The notes beneath the pieces were generated by a model. It was not told the DNA's origin, made no database searches, and saw only the letters and a program-made list of their open reading frames with translations. A program made the position numbers and the translations under genes. From a virus (taxonomy: Duplodnaviria; Heunggongvirae; Uroviricota; Caudoviricetes), in the IMG/VR virus record IMGVR_UViG_2690316348_000005: a stretch of 8,265 nucleotides of DNA; one strand, given 5' to 3'. Positions 872-7,419 of the stretch are shown piece by piece; the first letter of the stretch is position 1, and every line of letters starts with the position of its first letter.

Positions 872-1082
872 AAACGGTTTGCGGGAAAAGGAGAGTTAAG
901 TAGAATTGCAGCGGGTGCTTGAGGCTATCTGTCTCAGGCATGAACACCAAAAGGCAGATAGAGAAAAGCCCCAGTTAACATTACGCGTCCGGCAAGACGC
1001 TTAACATTAATCTGAGGCTCAATCTATGAACGGCAAATCTAGGTTAGCCTCTTACGTGCCGAAAGGCAAGGAGAAGCAGGCT

Positions 1083-1238
1083 ATGAAGCAGCAAAAGGCG
1101 ATGTTAATCGCCCTGATCGTCATCTGTTTAACCGTCATAGTGACGGCACTGGTAACGAGGAAAGACCTCTGCGAGGTACGAATTCGAACCGGCCAGACGG
1201 AGGTCGCTGTCTTCACAGCTTACGAACCTGAGGAGTAA
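1083..1238 (+). CDS. hokD: Hok/Gef-family type I toxin (HokD/RelF-like), 51 aa
   Basis: Translation MKQQKAMLIALIVICLTVIVTALVTRKDLCEVRIRTGQTEVAVFTAYEPEE matches my recollection of E. coli HokD. The ORF-track start at 1026 is an in-frame upstream extension. The gene is followed by a structured 3' region and a strong intrinsic terminator. Confidence 0.85.
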   Translation: MKQQKAMLIALIVICLTVIVTALVTRKDLCEVRIRTGQTEVAVFTAYEPEE

Positions 1239-2874: not shown

Positions 2875-3255
2875 ATGACCGAGCGCATAGAATTTGTTTT
2901 ACCTTACCCGCCGACGGTGAACACTTACTGGCGTCGTCGTGGCAGCACATATTTTGTATCAAAAGCCGGGGAGCGTTATCGCCGGGCAGTGGCGCTTATT
3001 GTTCGCCAGCAGCGGCTGAAATTAAGCCTGTCCGGAAGGTTGGCAATAAAAATTATTGCAGAACCACCGGATAAGCGCCGCCGTGACCTGGACAATATTC
3101 TGAAAGCGCCGCTGGATGCGCTGACGCATGCGGGGTTGCTAATGGACGATGAGCAGTTTGATGAAATCAATATCGTTCGTGCTCAGCCAGTATCTGGTGG
3201 ACGTCTGGGGGTGAAGATTTATCCCATAATGCTTGAAGGGCAGGTCAAAAAATGA
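2875..3255 (+). CDS. rusA: RusA-family Holliday junction resolvase, 126 aa
   Basis: Translation carries the RusA-like core ...PPDKRRRDLDNILKAPLDALTHAGLLMDDEQ... with conserved acidic residues, and the size matches RusA. Sits directly upstream of the Q-like gene, as in lambdoid nin regions. Confidence 0.88.
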   Translation: MTERIEFVLPYPPTVNTYWRRRGSTYFVSKAGERYRRAVALIVRQQRLKLSLSGRLAIKIIAEPPDKRRRDLDNILKAPLDALTHAGLLMDDEQFDEINIVRAQPVSGGRLGVKIYPIMLEGQVKK

Positions 3256-4073
3256 AACTGGAAGATTTACCGAAATACTACTCCCCAAAATCCCCCGGCC
3301 TGACTGATGCATCGGCCTCAACGTCGAAAGATGCGCTGAGTATCACTGATGTGATGGCCGCGCAGGGCATGACACAGAATCGGGCTGAGATGGGGGTTTC
3401 TGCGTTCCTTGGGAAAATGGGCATTAGTATGAATGACAGAGAGCGGGCAACAGAATTGCTGACAGAATATGCACTCAGTCGGTGTGATCGCGTGGCGGCG
3501 TTAAGAAAACTCCCGGCAGAAATAAAACCGGCAGTGATGCGTATTATGGCTTCGTATGCGTTTGAAGATTATGCCCGTAGCGCGGCGAGCAAAAAACAGT
3601 GCCCCTGCTGTCACGGAAAAAAATTTATTGAAAGCGAGGTTTTTACAAACAAGATCCAGTATCCGGATGGTAAGCCGCCGGTATGGGCAAAGTGTACGAA
3701 AGGTGTGTATCCGTCTTACTGGGAAGAATGGAAAAAAGTCAGGGAGGTGGTAAAAGTTGCCTGTCCGGAGTGTGGCGGAAAGGGTGAGGTTTCCACCGCC
3801 TGTAAGGATTGCCGTGGGCGTGGTGTCGCCATTCATCGTGAAGAGTCGGTAAAACGTGGTATGCCTGTTATCAGAGACTGCCAGCGTTGTGGTGGTCGTG
3901 GCTATGAAAGACTACCATCAACGGAGGCATTTAATGCTATATGCGAGGTGACAAACCAGATAACACGCGCGTCATGGGAAAAAACAGTTAAGAAATTTTA
4001 TGATGCGCTGGTGACCCGGTTTGATATTGAAGAAGCATGGGCTGAGCGGCAGTTAAAAAAGGTAACTAGGTAA
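3252..4073 (+). CDS. Putative late-gene antiterminator Q-like protein with four CxxCxGxG zinc-finger repeats, 273 aa
   Basis: ATG overlaps the rusA stop (ATGA). Contains CPCCHGKK, CPECGGKG, CKDCRGRG and CQRCGGRG repeats. Lies immediately upstream of a pR'-like promoter whose initial transcribed sequence is ACGATGGG. The Q assignment is by position and zinc motifs, not by a confirmed homology match. Confidence 0.6.
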   Translation: MKLEDLPKYYSPKSPGLTDASASTSKDALSITDVMAAQGMTQNRAEMGVSAFLGKMGISMNDRERATELLTEYALSRCDRVAALRKLPAEIKPAVMRIMASYAFEDYARSAASKKQCPCCHGKKFIESEVFTNKIQYPDGKPPVWAKCTKGVYPSYWEEWKKVREVVKVACPECGGKGEVSTACKDCRGRGVAIHREESVKRGMPVIRDCQRCGGRGYERLPSTEAFNAICEVTNQITRASWEKTVKKFYDALVTRFDIEEAWAERQLKKVTR

Positions 4074-4078
4074 CAAGG

Positions 4079-4114
4079 TTGATTTTTCCGGAATCTGTGG
4101 TAAATTCGTTATAA
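4079..4114 (+). promoter_or_regulatory. pR'-like late promoter with a likely qut region
   Basis: -35 TTGATT (4079..4084), 16-bp spacer, -10 TAAATT (4101..4106), then ACGATGGG. This closely resembles the lambda pR' -10 and initial transcribed sequence as I recall it. Confidence 0.6.
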
Positions 4115-4154
4115 CGATGGGCGTTTTATGCCTGACGTTAGAAGAGTTTCTACA

Positions 4155-4178
4155 ACCCGCCGCCGAGCGGGTTTTTTA
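4155..4178 (+). terminator. tR'-like intrinsic terminator, about 65 nt downstream of the putative late transcription start
   Basis: Stem CCCGC (4156..4160), loop CGCCGA, stem GCGGG (4167..4171), then TTTTTT (4172..4177). Confidence 0.65.
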
Positions 4179-4297
4179 TGACTGAAATCGCGTCAGTACA
4201 GTAAACGCGCTGGTGGCGGTGAATACCTGTCTTTCAGCTTGCTGGCTTTTTCGACAAGAGTTATTGGTGTGTCACGTTAACCGGAAAAGGAAAAGAC

Positions 4298-4495
4298 ATG
4301 CTAAAACAGCAGGATATGACAGAAACCGCCAGAGTGGTGTTTAATGAATTAAGCGTTACCGAACCGGCGACAGTCGGGGAGATAGCGCAGAATACTTACC
4401 TTTCACGCGAACGCTGCCAGTTAATACTGACCCAGCTGGTTATGGCGGGTCTGGCAGACTATCAGTTCGGTTGTTACAGACGCCTTCCGCAGTGA
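4298..4495 (+). CDS. Small putative winged-helix DNA-binding protein, 65 aa
   Basis: ATG at 4298 with an AAGGAAAAG ribosome-binding site upstream. The segment TVGEIAQNTYLSRERCQLILTQLVMAGL has a helix-turn-helix-like pattern. No specific family recognised. Confidence 0.45.
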   Translation: MLKQQDMTETARVVFNELSVTEPATVGEIAQNTYLSRERCQLILTQLVMAGLADYQFGCYRRLPQ

Positions 4496-4524
4496 AGGCT
4501 TTTTTATTTGTGGTAAATGGGCGG

Positions 4525-4551
4525 CTGGTGGGTGTTAGGGGCACCCACCAG
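4525..4551 (+). other. Perfect 10-bp stem hairpin (CTGGTGGGTG / CACCCACCAG, 7-nt loop) between the small wHTH gene and the methyltransferase
   Basis: Exact inverted repeat read from the sequence. Not followed by a T-run, so it is unlikely to be an intrinsic terminator. Confidence 0.4.
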
Positions 4552-4645
4552 CCATCTGCTCATGCGTTGGGTTCACAAGCAAACCTCAGGCCCACTGCTT
4601 TGCGCAAAAGCAGAATGAGCCTATCAGAGACAGGCTTAATGATCC

Positions 4646-5704
4646 ATGCTTAATACTGTAAAAATATCCAGTTGTGAGTTAATCAACGCCGACTGCCTGG
4701 AATTTATCCGGTCGTTACCCGAAAATTCTGTTGACCTGATAGTCACGGACCCGCCGTACTTTAAAGTGAAGCCTGAGGGCTGGGATAACCAGTGGAAGGG
4801 CGACGATGATTACCTGAAGTGGCTGGACCAGTGTCTGGCGCAGTTCTGGCGGGTGCTGAAACCTGCCGGAAGTCTTTACCTGTTCTGTGGTCATCGCCTG
4901 GCATCTGATATCGAAATCATGATGCGTGAACGCTTCAGTGTGCTGAACCATATTATCTGGGCGAAGCCGTCCGGACGCTGGAACGGATGCAACAAGGAAA
5001 GCCTGCGGGCGTATTTCCCCGCCACAGAGCGCATTCTGTTCGCGGAACATTATCAGGGGCCGTATCGTCCGAAAGATGCCGGGTATGCGGCGAAGGGCAG
5101 TGCACTGAAACAGCATGTGATGGCCCCGCTGATTTCTTACTTTCGTGATGCGCGAGCTGCCCTGGGGATAACGGCAAAACAGATTGCAGATGCCACAGGA
5201 AAGAAAAACATGGTGTCGCACTGGTTCAGTGCCGGTCAGTGGCAGTTGCCGAATGAAAGCGATTATCTGAAATTACAGGCGCTGTTTGCCCGGGTGGCAG
5301 AAGAGAAGCATCGGCGTGGTGAACTGGAAAAGCTCCACCACCAGCTGGTGGATACGTATACCTCACTGAACCGGCAGTATGCGGAGCTGCTGAGTGAATA
5401 TAAACATCTGCGGCGGTATTTTGGCGTGACGGTGCAGGTGCCGTATACCGATGTGTGGACGCATAAACCGGTGCAGTTCTATCCCGGGAAACATCCGTGC
5501 GAAAAACCGGCAGAAATGCTGCAGCAGATAATCAGCGCTAGCAGTCGTCCGGGTGACCTGATTGCAGATTTTTTCATGGGGTTGGGTTCGACAGTGAAAG
5601 CGGCACTGGCGCTCGGGCGTCGTGCAATTGGCGTTGAGCTGGAGACTGAACGTTTTGAGCAGACGGTTCGGGAAGTACAGGATTTAGTCAGCCAGAACGG
5701 ATGA
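4646..5704 (+). CDS. Orphan beta-class DNA methyltransferase (N6-adenine/N4-cytosine family, probably N6-adenine), 352 aa
   Basis: Catalytic motif IV DPPY (LIVTDPPYF) lies N-terminal to the SAM-binding motif I FxGxG (DLIADFFMGLGST), which is the beta-class order. No adjacent restriction endonuclease candidate is visible. Confidence 0.88.
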   Translation: MLNTVKISSCELINADCLEFIRSLPENSVDLIVTDPPYFKVKPEGWDNQWKGDDDYLKWLDQCLAQFWRVLKPAGSLYLFCGHRLASDIEIMMRERFSVLNHIIWAKPSGRWNGCNKESLRAYFPATERILFAEHYQGPYRPKDAGYAAKGSALKQHVMAPLISYFRDARAALGITAKQIADATGKKNMVSHWFSAGQWQLPNESDYLKLQALFARVAEEKHRRGELEKLHHQLVDTYTSLNRQYAELLSEYKHLRRYFGVTVQVPYTDVWTHKPVQFYPGKHPCEKPAEMLQQIISASSRPGDLIADFFMGLGSTVKAALALGRRAIGVELETERFEQTVREVQDLVSQNG

Positions 5705-5744
5705 TATTGAAGAATTAATTACGCGTCGTTATTATGCGGCTCCC

Positions 5745-5820
5745 GGCCCTTTAGCTCAGTGGTGAGAGCGAGCGACTCATAATCGCCAGGTCGCTGGTTC
5801 AAATCCAGCAAGGGCCACCA
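5745..5820 (+). tRNA. ileZ: tRNA-Ile2-like, anticodon CAT (presumed lysidine-modified, reads AUA)
   Basis: Manual cloverleaf: 7-bp acceptor GGCCCTT/AAGGGCC, D-arm with GG, anticodon loop CTCATAA, T-loop TTCAAAT, encoded CCA. Overall resemblance to E. coli ileX. The Ile-versus-Met call rests on that resemblance. Confidence 0.8.
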
Positions 5821-5827
5821 TCACATA

Positions 5828-5904
5828 CCGCCATTAGCTCATCAGGAAAGAGCGCCAGCCTTCGAAGCTGGCTGCGCGGGGTTCAAGTCCCCGATGGCGG
5901 TCCA
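5828..5904 (+). tRNA. argN: tRNA-Arg, anticodon TCG
   Basis: Manual cloverleaf: acceptor CCGCCAT/ATGGCGG (C1-G72), anticodon stem CCAGC/GCTGG, loop CTTCGAA, T-loop TTCAAGT, encoded CCA. The gene symbol is by position in a 933W-like ileZ-argN-argO cluster and is tentative. Confidence 0.75.
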
Positions 5905-5917
5905 TTATCTGCATCAT

Positions 5918-5994
5918 GCGTTGTTAGCTCAGCCGGACAGAGCAATTGCCTTCTAAGCAATCGGTCACTGGTTCGAATCCAGTACAGCGCGCCA
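5918..5994 (+). tRNA. argO: tRNA-Arg, anticodon TCT (reads AGA)
   Basis: Manual cloverleaf: acceptor GCGTTGT/ACAGCGC with a U4-G69 wobble, anticodon stem ATTGC/GCAAT, loop CTTCTAA, T-loop TTCGAAT, encoded CCA. The gene symbol is by position and is tentative. Confidence 0.8.
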
Positions 5995-6458: not shown

Positions 6459-6650
6459 ATACATATCTGGATTATCACCTGTTACGGTAAAAAGTGATTG
6501 CTTACTGTTTTTGTGAATGGCATTGCAGCAGCCGGATAATGTCAGTGCTGGCTGACGGTGTGCTGGTGGCGGGTGTGGTGGTTGTTGCTTTCCCGTTGCT
6601 GAAAAAGAAAACGCCAGACTGTTAGCCGGGTATCAGTTAGCGGGAGAAAT

Positions 6651-6855
6651 TTTTAAATACTTCACAATTCAGGCGGTTGACTGTTGTCTGGTTTGCGGGG
6701 AGTTTGTTAAAAGAAACTGGCATGGTGAATCCCCCTGTGCGGAGGGGCAATCAGCGAGTAGGTATATGGGATAATCGCGGATTCAGGTGCTGGTACTGAA
6801 TTCACCGGGAGGCACCCGGCACCATGCAATGGCACATAGCGCCACTCTCCAGCCC
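6651..6855 (+). repeat. Direct repeat B, copy 1 (about 205 bp), GC-rich and structured; truncated just before the terminator that ends copy 2
   Basis: Matches 7215..7419, identical over the last ~165 bp with about 6 mismatches in the first ~40 bp. Contains hairpins such as CCCCCTGTGCGGAGGGG. Confidence 0.85.
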
Positions 6856-6928
6856 AAAGTACAGGATTTAGTCAGCCAGAACGGATGATATTGAAGAATT
6901 AATTACGCGTCGTTATTATGCGGCTCCC

Positions 6929-7004
6929 GGCCCTTTAGCTCAGTGGTGAGAGCGAGCGACTCATAATCGCCAGGTCGCTGGTTCAAATCCAGCAAGGGCC
7001 ACCA
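6929..7004 (+). tRNA. ileZ: tRNA-Ile2-like, anticodon CAT, second copy
   Basis: Identical to 5745..5820. Confidence 0.8.
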
Positions 7005-7011
7005 TCACATA

Positions 7012-7088
7012 CCGCCATTAGCTCATCAGGAAAGAGCGCCAGCCTTCGAAGCTGGCTGCGCGGGGTTCAAGTCCCCGATGGCGGTCCA
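7012..7088 (+). tRNA. argN: tRNA-Arg, anticodon TCG, second copy
   Basis: Identical to 5828..5904. Confidence 0.75.
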
Positions 7089-7101
7089 TTATCTGCATCA
7101 T

Positions 7102-7178
7102 GCGTTGTTAGCTCAGCCGGACAGAGCAATTGCCTTCTAAGCAATCGGTCACTGGTTCGAATCCAGTACAACGCGCCA
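7102..7178 (+). tRNA. argO: tRNA-Arg, anticodon TCT, second copy with a Watson-Crick U4-A69 pair
   Basis: Identical to 5918..5994 except G69 to A (position 7171), which converts the U4-G69 wobble into U-A. Confidence 0.8.
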
Positions 7179-7192
7179 CACTTATTTTCCCT

Positions 7193-7218
7193 GGCTCGCT
7201 TTTGCGGGCCTTTTTTTT
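7193..7218 (+). terminator. Intrinsic terminator immediately after the second tRNA cluster
   Basis: Stem GGCTCGC / GCGGGCC (one G-U pair), loop TTTT, followed by TTTTTTTT (7211..7218). There is no equivalent after the first tRNA cluster. Confidence 0.7.
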
Positions 7219-7419
7219 AAATGTCTCACAATTCAGACGGTTGACAGTTGTCTGTTTTGCGGGGAGTTTGTTAAAAGAAACTGGCATGGTGAATCCCCCT
7301 GTGCGGAGGGGCAATCAGCGAGTAGGTATATGGGATAATCGCGGATTCAGGTGCTGGTACTGAATTCACCGGGAGGCACCCGGCACCATGCAATGGCACA
7401 TAGCGCCACTCTCCAGCCC
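7215..7419 (+). repeat. Direct repeat B, copy 2 (about 205 bp)
   Basis: See copy 1. This copy begins with a perfect TTGACA (7242..7247) and is followed by a terminator. Confidence 0.85.

What the first reader, a model, noticed from the sequence alone, without database searches (positions are those of the whole stretch)
4298..5704. Orphan beta-class DNA methyltransferase in the late operon, paired with a small wHTH gene and a perfect intervening hairpin
The methyltransferase has motif IV (DPPY) before motif I (FxGxG), and no restriction endonuclease candidate is present. Late-expressed orphan methyltransferases can protect progeny phage DNA from host restriction. The upstream 65-aa wHTH-like protein and the 10-bp perfect hairpin at 4525..4551 resemble a controller-protein arrangement, which would be unusual for an orphan enzyme.
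Basis: partly seen in the sequence, partly recalled or inferred. Interest (0 to 1): 0.5.

Follow-up and report, generated by a model that had tools for sequence, protein, structure and literature searches.

The report
Guarded non-specific phage adenine methylase
This is a prophage copy of an already characterised enzyme family that methylates adenines in any sequence context (M.EcoGII); it lies behind transcription stops, a conserved folded RNA leader and a small companion gene, which probably keep a toxic enzyme silent until the virus goes lytic.

Summary
ORF 4646-5704 is a beta-class N6-adenine methyltransferase (DPPY before FxGxG). ORF 4298-4495 is a real 65-aa winged-helix gene. The hairpin is real, but it has 12 bp (4523-4553), not 10.

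The interpretation needs correcting. The enzyme is about 93% identical to M.EcoGII, the published non-specific adenine methyltransferase that is silent in lysogens and harmful when expressed constitutively. No target motif should be expected.

It is the first large gene after Q, a lambda-like pR' and terminator tR'. A second terminator follows the small gene.

The hairpin is not a controller operator. It is the first of two long hairpins in a ~140-nt leader. That leader is more conserved than either flanking gene. It sits directly 5' of the methylase gene in every locus where it was found, including 13 loci that lack the small gene. It shows compensatory changes and has no Rfam match. The methylase start lacks a Shine-Dalgarno sequence.

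The hairpin's 5' arm is a Chi site; the window holds 11 Chi sites.

The winged-helix gene forms a moron-like cassette and is not a C protein. Its role is unknown. The closest analogue is Mu com-mom.

This copy carries a rare Ser-to-Leu change in motif I.

The parts
3252..4073 (+). Q antiterminator gene (273 aa)
   Evidence: Pfam PF03589 Antiterm, E=1.6e-53. Annotated 'antitermination protein' in a close E. coli relative.
4079..4118 (+). Late promoter pR'-like: -35 TTGATT (4079-4084), extended -10 TGgTAAATT (4098-4106), and the -10-like pause element AACGAT (4113-4118, in context AACGATGGG)
   Evidence: Read directly from the sequence. The resemblance to lambda pR' (TAAATT ... AACGATGGG) is from my own knowledge. 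The consensus scan did not list it because only 8 of 12 positions match. Homology to phages with other Q types starts only at 4154, so this stretch varies with the Q type.
4154..4179 (+). tR'-like intrinsic terminator
   Evidence: 7-bp G+C-rich stem followed by TTTTTT. An equivalent terminator lies upstream of the module in nearly all aligned loci.
4209..4216 (+). Chi site (GCTGGTGG) between tR' and the small gene
4238..4275 (+). Conserved promoter-like or operator-like motif of the winged-helix cassette: CTTGCTG-N-CAAGAGTTA..TGTGTCAC. -35-like TTGCTG is at 4239-4244, the spacer is 17 nt, and -10-like TATTGG is at 4262-4267.
   Evidence: The motif CTTG[CA]T[GA]-N9-14-[CA]AGAG[CT]T[AT] lies within 120 nt upstream of the small gene in 59 of 63 loci. 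It is absent from all 16 loci without that gene. Promoter activity is inferred only; the -10-like hexamer lacks the usual final T.
4298..4495 (+). Small winged-helix protein gene (65 aa) with Shine-Dalgarno AAGGA at 4287-4291
   Evidence: (PHROG 331). The family is mostly acidic, with median pI 5.1. It is narrow: 84 clusters among 1.84 billion representatives, with no fusion to a methyltransferase apparent from hit lengths and matched stretches.
4482..4505 (+). Intrinsic terminator T1 overlapping the end of the small gene
   Evidence: Stem GCCTTC/GAAGGC followed by TTTTTT. In other loci the stem changes on both sides (GCCTCC/GGAGGC, GCTGCC/GGCAGT, and others).
4508..4645 (+). Conserved structured leader of the methylase mRNA: two long hairpins, no Shine-Dalgarno sequence
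   Evidence: Nucleotide identity of 76-81% across Enterobacteriaceae, against 60-77% for the flanking coding regions. Covariance model R1 finds one copy directly 5' of the methylase ATG in 62 of the 89 sources searched (about 65 distinct sequences carry the full-length form), including phages N15 and LLS. 93.7% of cells are paired, and 26 of 40 pairs show changes on both sides. No Rfam family matches. Fold z-score is -3.96.
4517..4563 (+). Leader hairpin A. Outer helix 4517-4522 / 4558-4563.
   Evidence: Frequent G-U pairs in relatives fit an RNA made from the + strand. N15 keeps the hairpin with a completely different stem sequence.
4524..4552 (.). Inverted pair of Chi sites inside hairpin A: + strand 4524-4531, - strand 4545-4552
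   Evidence: A + strand Chi is present in the leader of 123 of 162 loci. The - strand copy is present in only 45, mostly E. coli-like loci.
4564..4649 (+). Leader hairpin B: a long irregular stem-loop whose base pairs the nucleotides next to, and in this window including, the methylase AUG
   Evidence: Minimum-free-energy folds of the window and of relatives converge on this shape. Compensatory changes include AGGC/GCCU to AAGC/GCUU through G-U intermediates, and GCUUU/AAAGC to GCGAU/AUCGC in N15.
4646..5704 (+). M.EcoGII-family non-specific N6-adenine methyltransferase gene (352 aa). DPPY at nt 4748-4759. Motif I at nt 5573-5587, with Leu313 where the family has Ser.
   Evidence: Literature: PMC5778455, PMC11551740.
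5745..5994 (+). tRNA triplet (CAU anticodon annotated as Ile in relatives, Arg-UCG, Arg-UCU) directly downstream in the same late transcription unit

Best explanation
The region is the first stretch of the late (Q-dependent) transcription unit of a lambdoid prophage. Its main product is an M.EcoGII-family methyltransferase. Enzymes of this family methylate adenines in DNA with no sequence specificity, which protects progeny phage DNA from many restriction systems at once. They harm the cell if made constitutively.

Expression is probably gated in layers.
(1) Transcription starts at a constitutive pR'-like promoter (4079-4106) and normally stops at tR' (4154-4179). Only Q-modified polymerase reads on.
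(2) A second terminator (4482-4505) and a long hairpin (4517-4563) lie between the upstream small gene and the methylase. These block read-through from any upstream promoter.
(3) The methylase mRNA begins with a conserved ~140-nt leader of two long hairpins. It has no Shine-Dalgarno sequence, and the second hairpin closes on the start codon. Translation is therefore probably weak, or dependent on a factor or on RNA processing.

The 65-aa winged-helix gene is a separate cassette with its own conserved upstream motif, ribosome-binding site and terminator. It is linked to the methylase across Enterobacterales but is dispensable for the module. It most likely acts as an accessory regulator or partner of the methylase. 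In that respect it resembles the small com gene in front of Mu mom, but it uses a different fold.

The 5' arm of the hairpin also serves at the DNA level as a Chi site, one of a dense cluster of Chi sites.

Shown: gene identities, family membership by sequence, synteny, terminators, leader conservation and covariation, Chi counts.
Inferred: non-specific activity of this copy, Q dependence, translational repression by the leader, any role of the winged-helix protein.
For: Methylase identity
- 324 of 349 residues match the M.EcoGII sequence printed in the supplement of PMC11551740.
- 95% identity to the phage 1720a-02 enzyme, which PMC5778455 names as very similar to M.EcoGII.
- The published enzyme is non-specific, not expressed in the lysogen, and makes constitutive clones slow-growing and unstable. 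A 2025 review pairs it with Mu Mom as 'silent in lysogens and toxic'.

Late-operon position
- The gene order is Q, pR'-like promoter, tR', small gene, methylase, tRNAs, then holin and lysozyme in a close relative.
- The same order holds in Stx2 phages and phiP27.
- In N15 the methylase follows an annotated promoter plus terminator and precedes the holin.

Leader
- It is more conserved than the flanking coding sequence.
- It is present in 13 loci that lack the small gene.
- A single copy lies directly 5' of the ATG in every locus where the model finds it, 62 of the 89 sources searched.
- 60 compensatory cells were counted, against 9.0 in shuffles and 11-28 in slid controls.
- N15, which was not in the seed alignment, keeps the helices with different sequences.
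- A Shine-Dalgarno-like 4-mer occurs before the methylase ATG in 5 of 65 leaders, against 53 of 62 for the small gene.

Small gene
- Evidence comes from synteny, purifying selection, fold and the cassette motif.
- In every phage record listed in both searches, the small gene lies about 350 nt upstream of the methylase homologue.

Precedent for a small regulator
- In Aeromonas phage phiARM81ld a Com-family zinc ribbon (PF10122, 27.9 bits against a 22.9-bit cut-off) overlaps the start of a 55%-identical methylase.
- Mu-like prophages pair com with unrelated non-specific adenine methylases (PMC3299994).

Chi
- The window holds 11 sites against 0.27 expected.
- Across 80 related genome loci there are 322 sites on the + strand and 74 on the - strand.
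- Chi-rich lambdoid phages are described in PMC12315714, and their type phage LLS carries this methylase and leader.
Against: - No experiment was done on this copy.
- Its motif I carries Leu where 158 of 163 homologues have Ser, so it may be weakened or inactive.
- The covariation counts come from an alignment fitted to the proposed structure. Many pairs vary only between G-C and G-U.
- Predicted accessibility of the methylase start region (median unpaired probability 0.31) is no lower than that of the small gene (0.39). The folding calculation alone therefore does not show repression.
- The winged-helix protein is acidic in most members. This fits poorly with nucleic-acid binding.
- The winged-helix gene is absent from about one locus in six, so it cannot be required for methylase expression.
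- Its upstream motif lacks a good -10 hexamer.
Confidence: 0.6

Rival explanations
1. Controller-type transcriptional switch. The winged-helix protein binds DNA, at its own upstream motif and/or at the palindromes of the intergenic region. It thereby times or limits methylase transcription, as C proteins do in restriction-modification systems.
For: - The recognition helix (RCQLILTQL..AGL) and the upstream motif CTTGCTG...CAGAGTTA are both conserved from Escherichia to Xenorhabdus. This fits autoregulatory binding.
- The fold resembles MarR, IclR and ArsR DNA-binding domains.
- The leader contains near-palindromes such as GCTTTAGCGCTAAAGC.
Against: - It is not an Xre-type C protein, there is no C-box and there is no endonuclease gene.
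- A terminator lies between the two genes.
- No sigma-70-like promoter was detected between them.
- The leader and methylase persist unchanged without the gene in 13 loci.
- Only 9 of 61 loci share a 7-mer between the upstream motif and the leader.
- Most family members are acidic.
- G-U pairs point to an RNA-level rather than a DNA-level constraint on the leader.
Confidence: 0.12
2. The winged-helix gene is an autonomous moron with a job unrelated to the methylase, for example a lysogen-expressed accessory or anti-defence protein. Its neighbourhood with the methylase reflects only shared descent and a favoured insertion slot between tR' and the methylase leader.
For: - The cassette is self-contained: conserved upstream motif, ribosome-binding site and terminator.
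- The same slot holds unrelated ORFs, or nothing, in 16 loci.
- No fusion to a methyltransferase is apparent among 84 representative clusters.
- Its acidic character is common among anti-restriction and protein-binding factors (the last point is my own knowledge).
Against: - The family was found only next to this methylase: every phage record cross-checked, and 76 of 77 viral contigs.
- A distant homologue keeps the neighbourhood in N15.
- The linkage persists down to 39% identity of the small protein.
- Another branch of the methylase family has a different small regulator (Com) in the same place.
Confidence: 0.25
3. The hairpin matters only as DNA. It is a pair of Chi sites that tames RecBCD on replicating or packaged phage DNA. 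The surrounding conservation is hitch-hiking or some other DNA-level signal rather than an RNA leader.
For: - The 5' arm GCTGGTGGGTG is almost invariant while the 3' arm drifts.
- Chi is about 40-fold enriched in the window and strongly biased to the + strand in related loci.
- Right-end Chi clusters are documented in lambdoid phages.
Against: - Providencia (L066, L073) and N15 keep the hairpin without any Chi, through changes on both arms.
- The second hairpin has no Chi, yet it is equally conserved and covaries.
- G-U pairs are tolerated only on the + strand RNA.
- In Xenorhabdus the equivalent hairpin is followed by a T-run, like a terminator.
Confidence: 0.1
4. This particular copy is a decaying or attenuated allele. 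The Ser313Leu change in the AdoMet-binding motif I disables or weakens the enzyme, so the module here has no current protective function.
For: - Leu occurs only in the window and four loci with an identical protein. 158 of 163 homologues spanning 61-100% identity keep Ser.
- The change is a single TCG-to-TTG type substitution (sequence).
Against: - The ORF is intact and full length, and all other motifs are kept.
- The same allele occurs on at least four other contigs, so it is circulating.
- The FxGxG pattern is formally retained.
Confidence: 0.25

Closest known systems
M.EcoGII / M.EcoGI of E. coli O104:H4 C227-11 (Murray et al. 2018, PMC5778455)
   Same: - About 93% amino-acid identity, and the same length class (352 against 349 aa).
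- Beta-class motif order, with a central four-helix target-recognition region described in PMC11551740.
- Prophage location. Phage 1720a-02, named in that paper, is one of the best DNA matches to this window.
   Different: - This copy has Leu instead of the invariant Ser in motif I, plus a 3-residue longer C-terminus.
- Its activity has not been tested.
- The publications do not describe the upstream small gene or the leader.
Phage Mu com-mom operon
   Same: - A DNA-modifying enzyme that protects phage DNA broadly, is harmful to the host and is expressed only late.
- It is preceded by a small gene of about 60-70 aa and by mRNA structure at the start of the enzyme gene (PMC6483171, PMC3299994, PMC12707154).
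- One branch of this methylase family (Aeromonas phage phiARM81ld) has a true Com homologue in that position.
   Different: - Here the small protein is a winged helix, not a Com zinc ribbon. It does not overlap the enzyme gene and is separated from it by a terminator and about 150 nt.
- The enzyme is a methyltransferase, not Mom.
- No translational activation has been shown.
com plus non-specific adenine methyltransferases Hin1523 / Hia5 / Nme1821 of Mu-like prophages (PMC3299994)
   Same: Promiscuous adenine methylation, a late position in a temperate phage, silence in the lysogen, and a small regulator gene upstream.
   Different: A different methyltransferase family: that paper aligns those enzymes with M1.DpnII and Dam, while this one is beta class. 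The phage type is also different, and the regulator there is Com.
Controller (C) proteins of restriction-modification systems
   Same: A small helix-turn-helix-type gene just upstream of a modification-system gene.
   Different: - C proteins are Xre-type HTH dimers that bind C-boxes and control an endonuclease gene (my own knowledge).
- Here the fold is a winged helix, and there is no endonuclease and no C-box.
- A terminator separates the two genes.
Right-end Chi clusters of lambdoid phages such as LLS (PMC12315714)
   Same: Many Chi sites, mostly on the strand read by late transcription, lie near the Q-lysis end. LLS itself carries the homologous methylase and leader.
   Different: That paper does not mention palindromic or inverted Chi sites (term search). 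In the window the orientation bias is weaker: 7 on the + strand and 4 on the - strand.

Membership tests
Beta-class N6-adenine DNA methyltransferase, M.EcoGII family | Motif IV (DPPY) N-terminal to motif I (FxGxG), with a central target-recognition region | tested here: met
   DPPY at residues 35-38 and FMGLG at residues 310-314. PF01555 matches residues 29-340. Solved beta-class enzymes align in two blocks either side of residues ~115-280.
Beta-class N6-adenine DNA methyltransferase, M.EcoGII family | Close sequence identity to M.EcoGII over the full length | tested here: met
   324 of 349 residues identical (93%). The reference sequence was machine-read from a supplement, so the figure is approximate.
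Beta-class N6-adenine DNA methyltransferase, M.EcoGII family | Intact, family-typical AdoMet-binding motif I (FFMGSGS) | tested here: not met
   Leu313 replaces the Ser that 158 of 163 homologues keep. The FxGxG pattern itself is retained.
Beta-class N6-adenine DNA methyltransferase, M.EcoGII family | Sequence-independent adenine methylation; silent in the lysogen; harmful when constitutive | not testable with these tools
   Known for M.EcoGII only (PMC5778455).
Controller (C) protein system | Xre-type helix-turn-helix C protein | tested here: not met
   The AF2 model is H1-b-H2-H3-wing. The best fold matches are winged-helix domains. There is no HTH_3/Xre hit.
Controller (C) protein system | Cognate restriction endonuclease gene under C control | tested here: not met
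   No nuclease partner was found in the window or next to the methylase in the annotated relatives inspected. PhiP27's upstream GIY-YIG-family gene was not examined.
Controller (C) protein system | C-box operator upstream of the C gene | tested here: inconclusive
   A conserved motif exists upstream. It shows only weak dyad symmetry and does not resemble the GACT..AGTC C-box I recall.
Mu com-mom type translational control | Com zinc-ribbon protein (PF10122) encoded just upstream | tested here: not met
   The window protein has no Cys4 motif and no PF10122 hit. The feature is met in the Aeromonas phage relative.
Mu com-mom type translational control | mRNA stem-loop occluding the start region of the modification gene | tested here: inconclusive
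   A conserved hairpin closes next to or on the AUG, and there is no Shine-Dalgarno sequence. Computed accessibility is no lower than for the control gene.
Moron (autonomous promoter-gene-terminator insert in a late operon) | Own terminator; variable presence between otherwise conserved neighbours | tested here: met
   Terminator at 4482-4505. The slot is empty or holds other ORFs in 16 loci.
Moron (autonomous promoter-gene-terminator insert in a late operon) | Own promoter active in the lysogen | tested here: inconclusive
   The conserved -35-like TTGCTG, 17-nt spacer and -10-like TATTGG travel with the gene. The hexamer is poor and no expression data are available.
Chi recombination hotspot | Exact GCTGGTGG, enriched and orientation-biased | tested here: met
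   11 sites against 0.27 expected. Related loci hold 322 on the + strand and 74 on the - strand. Activity with RecBCD was not testable.
Any Rfam RNA family (for the leader) | Score at or above a family's gathering threshold | tested here: not met
   The best hit is P26 at 24.2 bits against a 36-bit threshold, on the opposite strand.

The most novel reading that the evidence does not exclude
The ~140-nt two-hairpin leader is an undescribed cis-regulatory RNA class dedicated to M.EcoGII-type methylases. Together with the acidic winged-helix protein it would form a safety switch for a promiscuous, self-toxic enzyme. The switch could be post-transcriptional and Com-like, or it could work by direct protein-protein inhibition in the manner of an antitoxin. 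The 5' arm of the first hairpin would be under double selection, as an RNA stem and as a Chi site.
Probability: 0.22. Interest if true: 0.6.

Novelty: new variant of a known kind. Interest (0 to 1): 0.4.

Why it matters
M.EcoGII is widely used as a tool for chromatin and RNA footprinting. It is also the archetype of a phage 'methylate everything' anti-restriction strategy. Homologous DNA is found in 3177 of 5426 complete E. coli genomes, including many Stx2 phages, where it lies between Q and the toxin genes.

How a cell-harming enzyme is kept silent and then released has not been described in the papers I could read. The conserved leader and the linked small gene define concrete, testable elements for that control. 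They may also affect transcription or processing of everything downstream in the late operon: tRNAs, stx in relatives, and lysis genes.

For annotation, the practical point is that no methylation motif should be expected from this gene. This allele may also be attenuated.

Tried and rejected
- Rfam search of the whole window and of 4180-4680 at permissive E-values: no family for the leader.
- Sequence search of solved structures with the winged-helix profile: only insignificant hits (E about 0.09) to N-terminal domains of small-molecule methyltransferases.
- Foldseek against PDB and viral models: generic winged-helix matches only, none with E below 1e-3.
- Search for a 'Rosetta stone' fusion of the small protein to a methyltransferase among 1.84 billion representatives: none apparent; all but two low-scoring, multi-stretch hits are 114 aa or shorter.
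- Shared operator between the small gene's upstream motif and the leader: a common 7-mer in only 9 of 61 loci.
- Sigma-70 promoter between the small gene and the methylase: none found by the scan.
- Coding potential of the overlapping ORF 4471-4653: rejected, because relatives differ by 1-nt indels across it.
- Base-pairing accessibility of the methylase start region as evidence of repression: not discriminating.
- Restriction-enzyme or defence partners in the window: none.
- Literature search for induction-dependent methylation or regulation of this module: nothing specific found.
Full report
**What the window is.** The 8265-nt window is the nin-to-late junction of a lambdoid prophage of E. 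coli. In order it holds:
- hok/sok (913-1238);
- a DUF968/HNH gene (1816-2874);
- rusA (2875-3255);
- a 273-aa Q antiterminator (3252-4073, PF03589, E=1.6e-53);
- the region of the finding;
- two copies of a tRNA triplet;
- two STnc100 sRNA matches;
- a DUF1737 gene.

A closely related, annotated E. coli prophage continues with holin, lysozyme and lysis genes. DNA similar to 4074-5744 occurs in 3177 of 5426 complete E. coli genomes and in 254 phage records, mostly Stx2 phages.

**Checking the observation.** ORF 4646-5704 is a 352-aa N6_N4_Mtase (PF01555, E=7.9e-42). DPPY is at residues 35-38 and F-M-G-L-G at residues 310-314, which is the beta-class order.

ORF 4298-4495 encodes a real 65-aa protein. 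Homologues of 63-67 aa lie just upstream of the methylase in most related loci from Escherichia to Xenorhabdus, Photorhabdus, Providencia and Morganella. Median dN/dS is 0.19. AlphaFold2 gives a confident winged helix (pLDDT 89.6).

The inverted repeat is perfect over 12 bp (4523-4534 / 4542-4553, 7-nt loop).

No restriction-enzyme candidate is found in the window.

**What the methylase is.** The M.EcoGII sequence is printed in the supplement of the SUPREM paper (PMC11551740). The window protein matches it at 324 of 349 residues (the reference was machine-read, so the figure is approximate). It is 95% identical to the enzyme of phage 1720a-02, which the M.EcoGII paper names as a very similar relative.

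M.EcoGII methylates adenine in any sequence context. It is not expressed in the lysogen, and it made constitutive clones slow-growing and unstable. [quoted passage not shown]

A target motif should not be expected, and methylome sequencing of the lysogen would show nothing.

One detail is specific to this copy. The Ser of motif I (FFMG-S-GS) is Leu here and in four loci with an identical protein, whereas 158 of 163 homologues keep Ser. The allele may be weakened.

**Transcriptional setting.** Directly after Q there is:
- a -35 TTGATT;
- an extended -10 TGgTAAATT;
- the sequence AACGATGGG, which I recall as the sigma-dependent pause element of lambda pR';
- a strong terminator at 4154-4179.

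Phages with other Q types share homology only from 4154 onward. This fits a Q-specific promoter and qut segment followed by a common module. In Stx phages pR' is constitutively active, and its transcript is terminated immediately downstream during lysogeny (abstract of PMC7547250).

A second terminator (4482-4505) overlaps the end of the small gene. Its stem changes on both sides in relatives. At least two terminators thus lie between pR' and the methylase. Only Q-modified polymerase would be expected to pass them; this step is inferred.

**The hairpin belongs to a conserved leader.** Across Enterobacteriaceae the 150-nt spacer between the two genes is 76-81% identical to the window. The small gene is 60-76% identical and the methylase gene 67-77%.

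In 13 loci that lack the small gene altogether, the same ~140-nt sequence still lies directly in front of the methylase ATG, preceded by a terminator.

A covariance model built from 65 distinct leaders finds one copy directly 5' of the methylase start in 62 of the 89 sources searched. These include phage LLS and, at 52.6 bits, the distantly related linear-plasmid phage N15. The one further match is a weak hit at the reporting threshold.

Single-sequence folds converge on two long hairpins.
- Hairpin B (4564-4649) closes next to, and in this window on, the start codon.

On the model-fitted alignment:
- 93.7% of cells pair;
- 26 of 40 pairs show changes on both sides;
- 60 cells are compensatory, against 9.0 in shuffles and 11-28 when partners are slid.

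That alignment leans towards the structure, so the counts are supportive rather than decisive. Three independent points add weight.
- N15 was not in the seed. It keeps the helices with different sequences, for example GCUGGUGGGUG/CACCC..CCAGC becomes CGCGGGACGAG/CUCAUCCCGCG, and GCUUU/AAAGC becomes GCGAU/AUCGC.
- One pair runs G-C, G-U, A-U across genera.
- G-U pairs are frequent, which fits an RNA from the + strand.

Single-nucleotide indels rule out a coding function for the overlapping ORF 4471-4653. No Rfam family matches.

The methylase start has a Shine-Dalgarno-like 4-mer in only 5 of 65 leaders, against 53 of 62 for the small gene. I infer that the leader limits or conditions translation, or is a processing site. 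My accessibility calculation did not discriminate, so this remains an inference.

In Xenorhabdus the equivalent of hairpin A is followed by a T-run, like a terminator. The hairpin may therefore also act in termination.

**Chi.** The 5' arm of the hairpin reads G-GCTGGTGG-GTG, which contains the Chi octamer. Because the stem is perfect in this window, Chi is also present on the other strand.

The window holds 11 Chi sites against 0.27 expected. A + strand Chi is present in the leader of 123 of 162 loci, and the - strand copy in only 45.

In alignments the 5' arm is almost invariant, while the 3' arm drifts into wobble pairs and a bulge. This suggests a second, DNA-level constraint on that arm.

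Across 80 related genome loci, Chi is 322 to 74 in favour of the late-transcription strand. Such right-end Chi clusters in lambdoid phages were described in 2025 (PMC12315714). The type phage LLS carries this methylase and leader.

Providencia loci and N15 keep the hairpin without Chi. The structure is therefore not merely a by-product of Chi.

**The small winged-helix gene.** It has its own conserved upstream motif, CTTGCTG, a 9-14-nt spacer, then CAGAGTTA (window 4238-4263). The motif is present in 59 of 63 loci with the gene and in none of 16 without it. The gene also has a good ribosome-binding site and its own terminator, so it looks like a moron cassette.

The motif has a -35-like TTGCTG and a 17-nt spacer, but only a poor -10-like hexamer. 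Promoter function is not established.

The family is narrow: 84 representative clusters among 1.84 billion proteins. All but two low-scoring hits are 114 aa or shorter, and I saw no sign of a fusion to a methyltransferase, though I did not inspect the two long proteins. It was found only beside this methylase: 76 of 77 viral contigs, every phage record I could cross-check, and a 28%-identical homologue in N15.

It is acidic in most members, with median pI 5.1. Fold searches return generic winged-helix domains, namely N-terminal domains of small-molecule methyltransferases, MarR, IclR and ArsR.

It is not a controller protein. The fold is wrong, there is no endonuclease and no C-box, a terminator lies between the genes, and the gene is dispensable for the module. 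Its function cannot be settled here.

The best analogue is the small com gene in front of Mu mom. In Aeromonas phage phiARM81ld a true Com zinc ribbon overlaps the start of a 55%-identical methylase. Mu-like prophages also pair com with unrelated non-specific adenine methylases that are likewise silent in lysogens (PMC3299994).

This shows that promiscuous phage DNA-modifying enzymes repeatedly acquire a small upstream companion. It does not show that the winged-helix protein works like Com.

**Verdict.** The methylase is a member of an already known and characterised family, in its usual genomic place. The controller-protein reading is not supported.

What is not described in the papers I could read is the conserved two-hairpin leader bound to this gene family, the fact that its first hairpin doubles as a Chi site, and the dedicated winged-helix cassette. 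Together these look like a new variant of the 'small gene plus structured leader plus toxic late modification enzyme' theme. Interest is moderate.

Noticed in passing
window 838, 1983, 2041, 4209, 4524, 5344, 6562 (+ strand); 2447, 2499, 4545, 5338 (- strand): There are eleven Chi octamers (GCTGGTGG) in 8.3 kb, against 0.27 expected from shuffles. Two pairs are palindromic: the hairpin at 4524-4552, and CCACCAGCTGGTGG at 5338-5351 inside the methylase gene. This matches the Chi-rich lambdoid phage class described in PMC12315714.
   Followed up: partly
window 5582-5584 (codon 313 of the methylase): TTG (Leu) replaces the Ser codon of motif I (FFMG-S-GS). Ser is kept in 158 of 163 homologues. 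Only four other loci, whose proteins are identical to this one, share the Leu. The allele may be hypomorphic.
   Followed up: partly
window 5673-5972 and 6857-7156; 6637-6855 and 7201-7419: A 300-nt segment is duplicated at 100% identity. It covers the last 32 nt of the methylase gene plus most of the three-tRNA cluster. A second repeat of 219 nt (95% identity) carries the STnc100 sRNA matches. The late region therefore contains a tandem rearrangement, and there is no stx gene where Stx phages carry one.
   Followed up: partly
window 4079-4179: The putative pR' promoter is followed by AACGATGGG, which I recall as identical to the lambda pR' pause-inducing element, and by terminator tR'. This predicts a short constitutive transcript of about 65 nt, analogous to lambda 6S RNA or to StxS of Stx phages.
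   Followed up: no
window 913-1238: A complete hok/sok type I toxin-antitoxin locus is present (Rfam sok 112 bits; Hok/Gef Pfam E=3e-23). A weak isrK-like match lies at 1247-1328 (25.7 bits, below threshold).
   Followed up: no
L163 (Aeromonas phage phiARM81ld) 1829-2044 and 1968-3023: A Com-family zinc-ribbon gene overlaps the start of a methylase that is 55% identical to the window enzyme, just before the holin. This branch of the family therefore uses a Mu com-type regulator where Enterobacterales phages have the winged-helix gene.
   Followed up: partly
L164 (phage N15) 1869-2018 and 2001-3089: The leader model matches N15 directly after its annotated late promoter and terminator. The protein match to the methylase begins at 2001. 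The annotated start of gene 52 (2235) is therefore probably too far downstream.
   Followed up: no
window 4643-4646, and the same position in relatives: A GATC (Dam) site lies immediately before the methylase ATG (TGATCCATG / TGATCTATG) and is almost invariant in the leader alignment. It forms the 3' side of the outer helix of hairpin B. Whether Dam methylation matters here, as it does for Mu mom transcription, is unknown.
   Followed up: no
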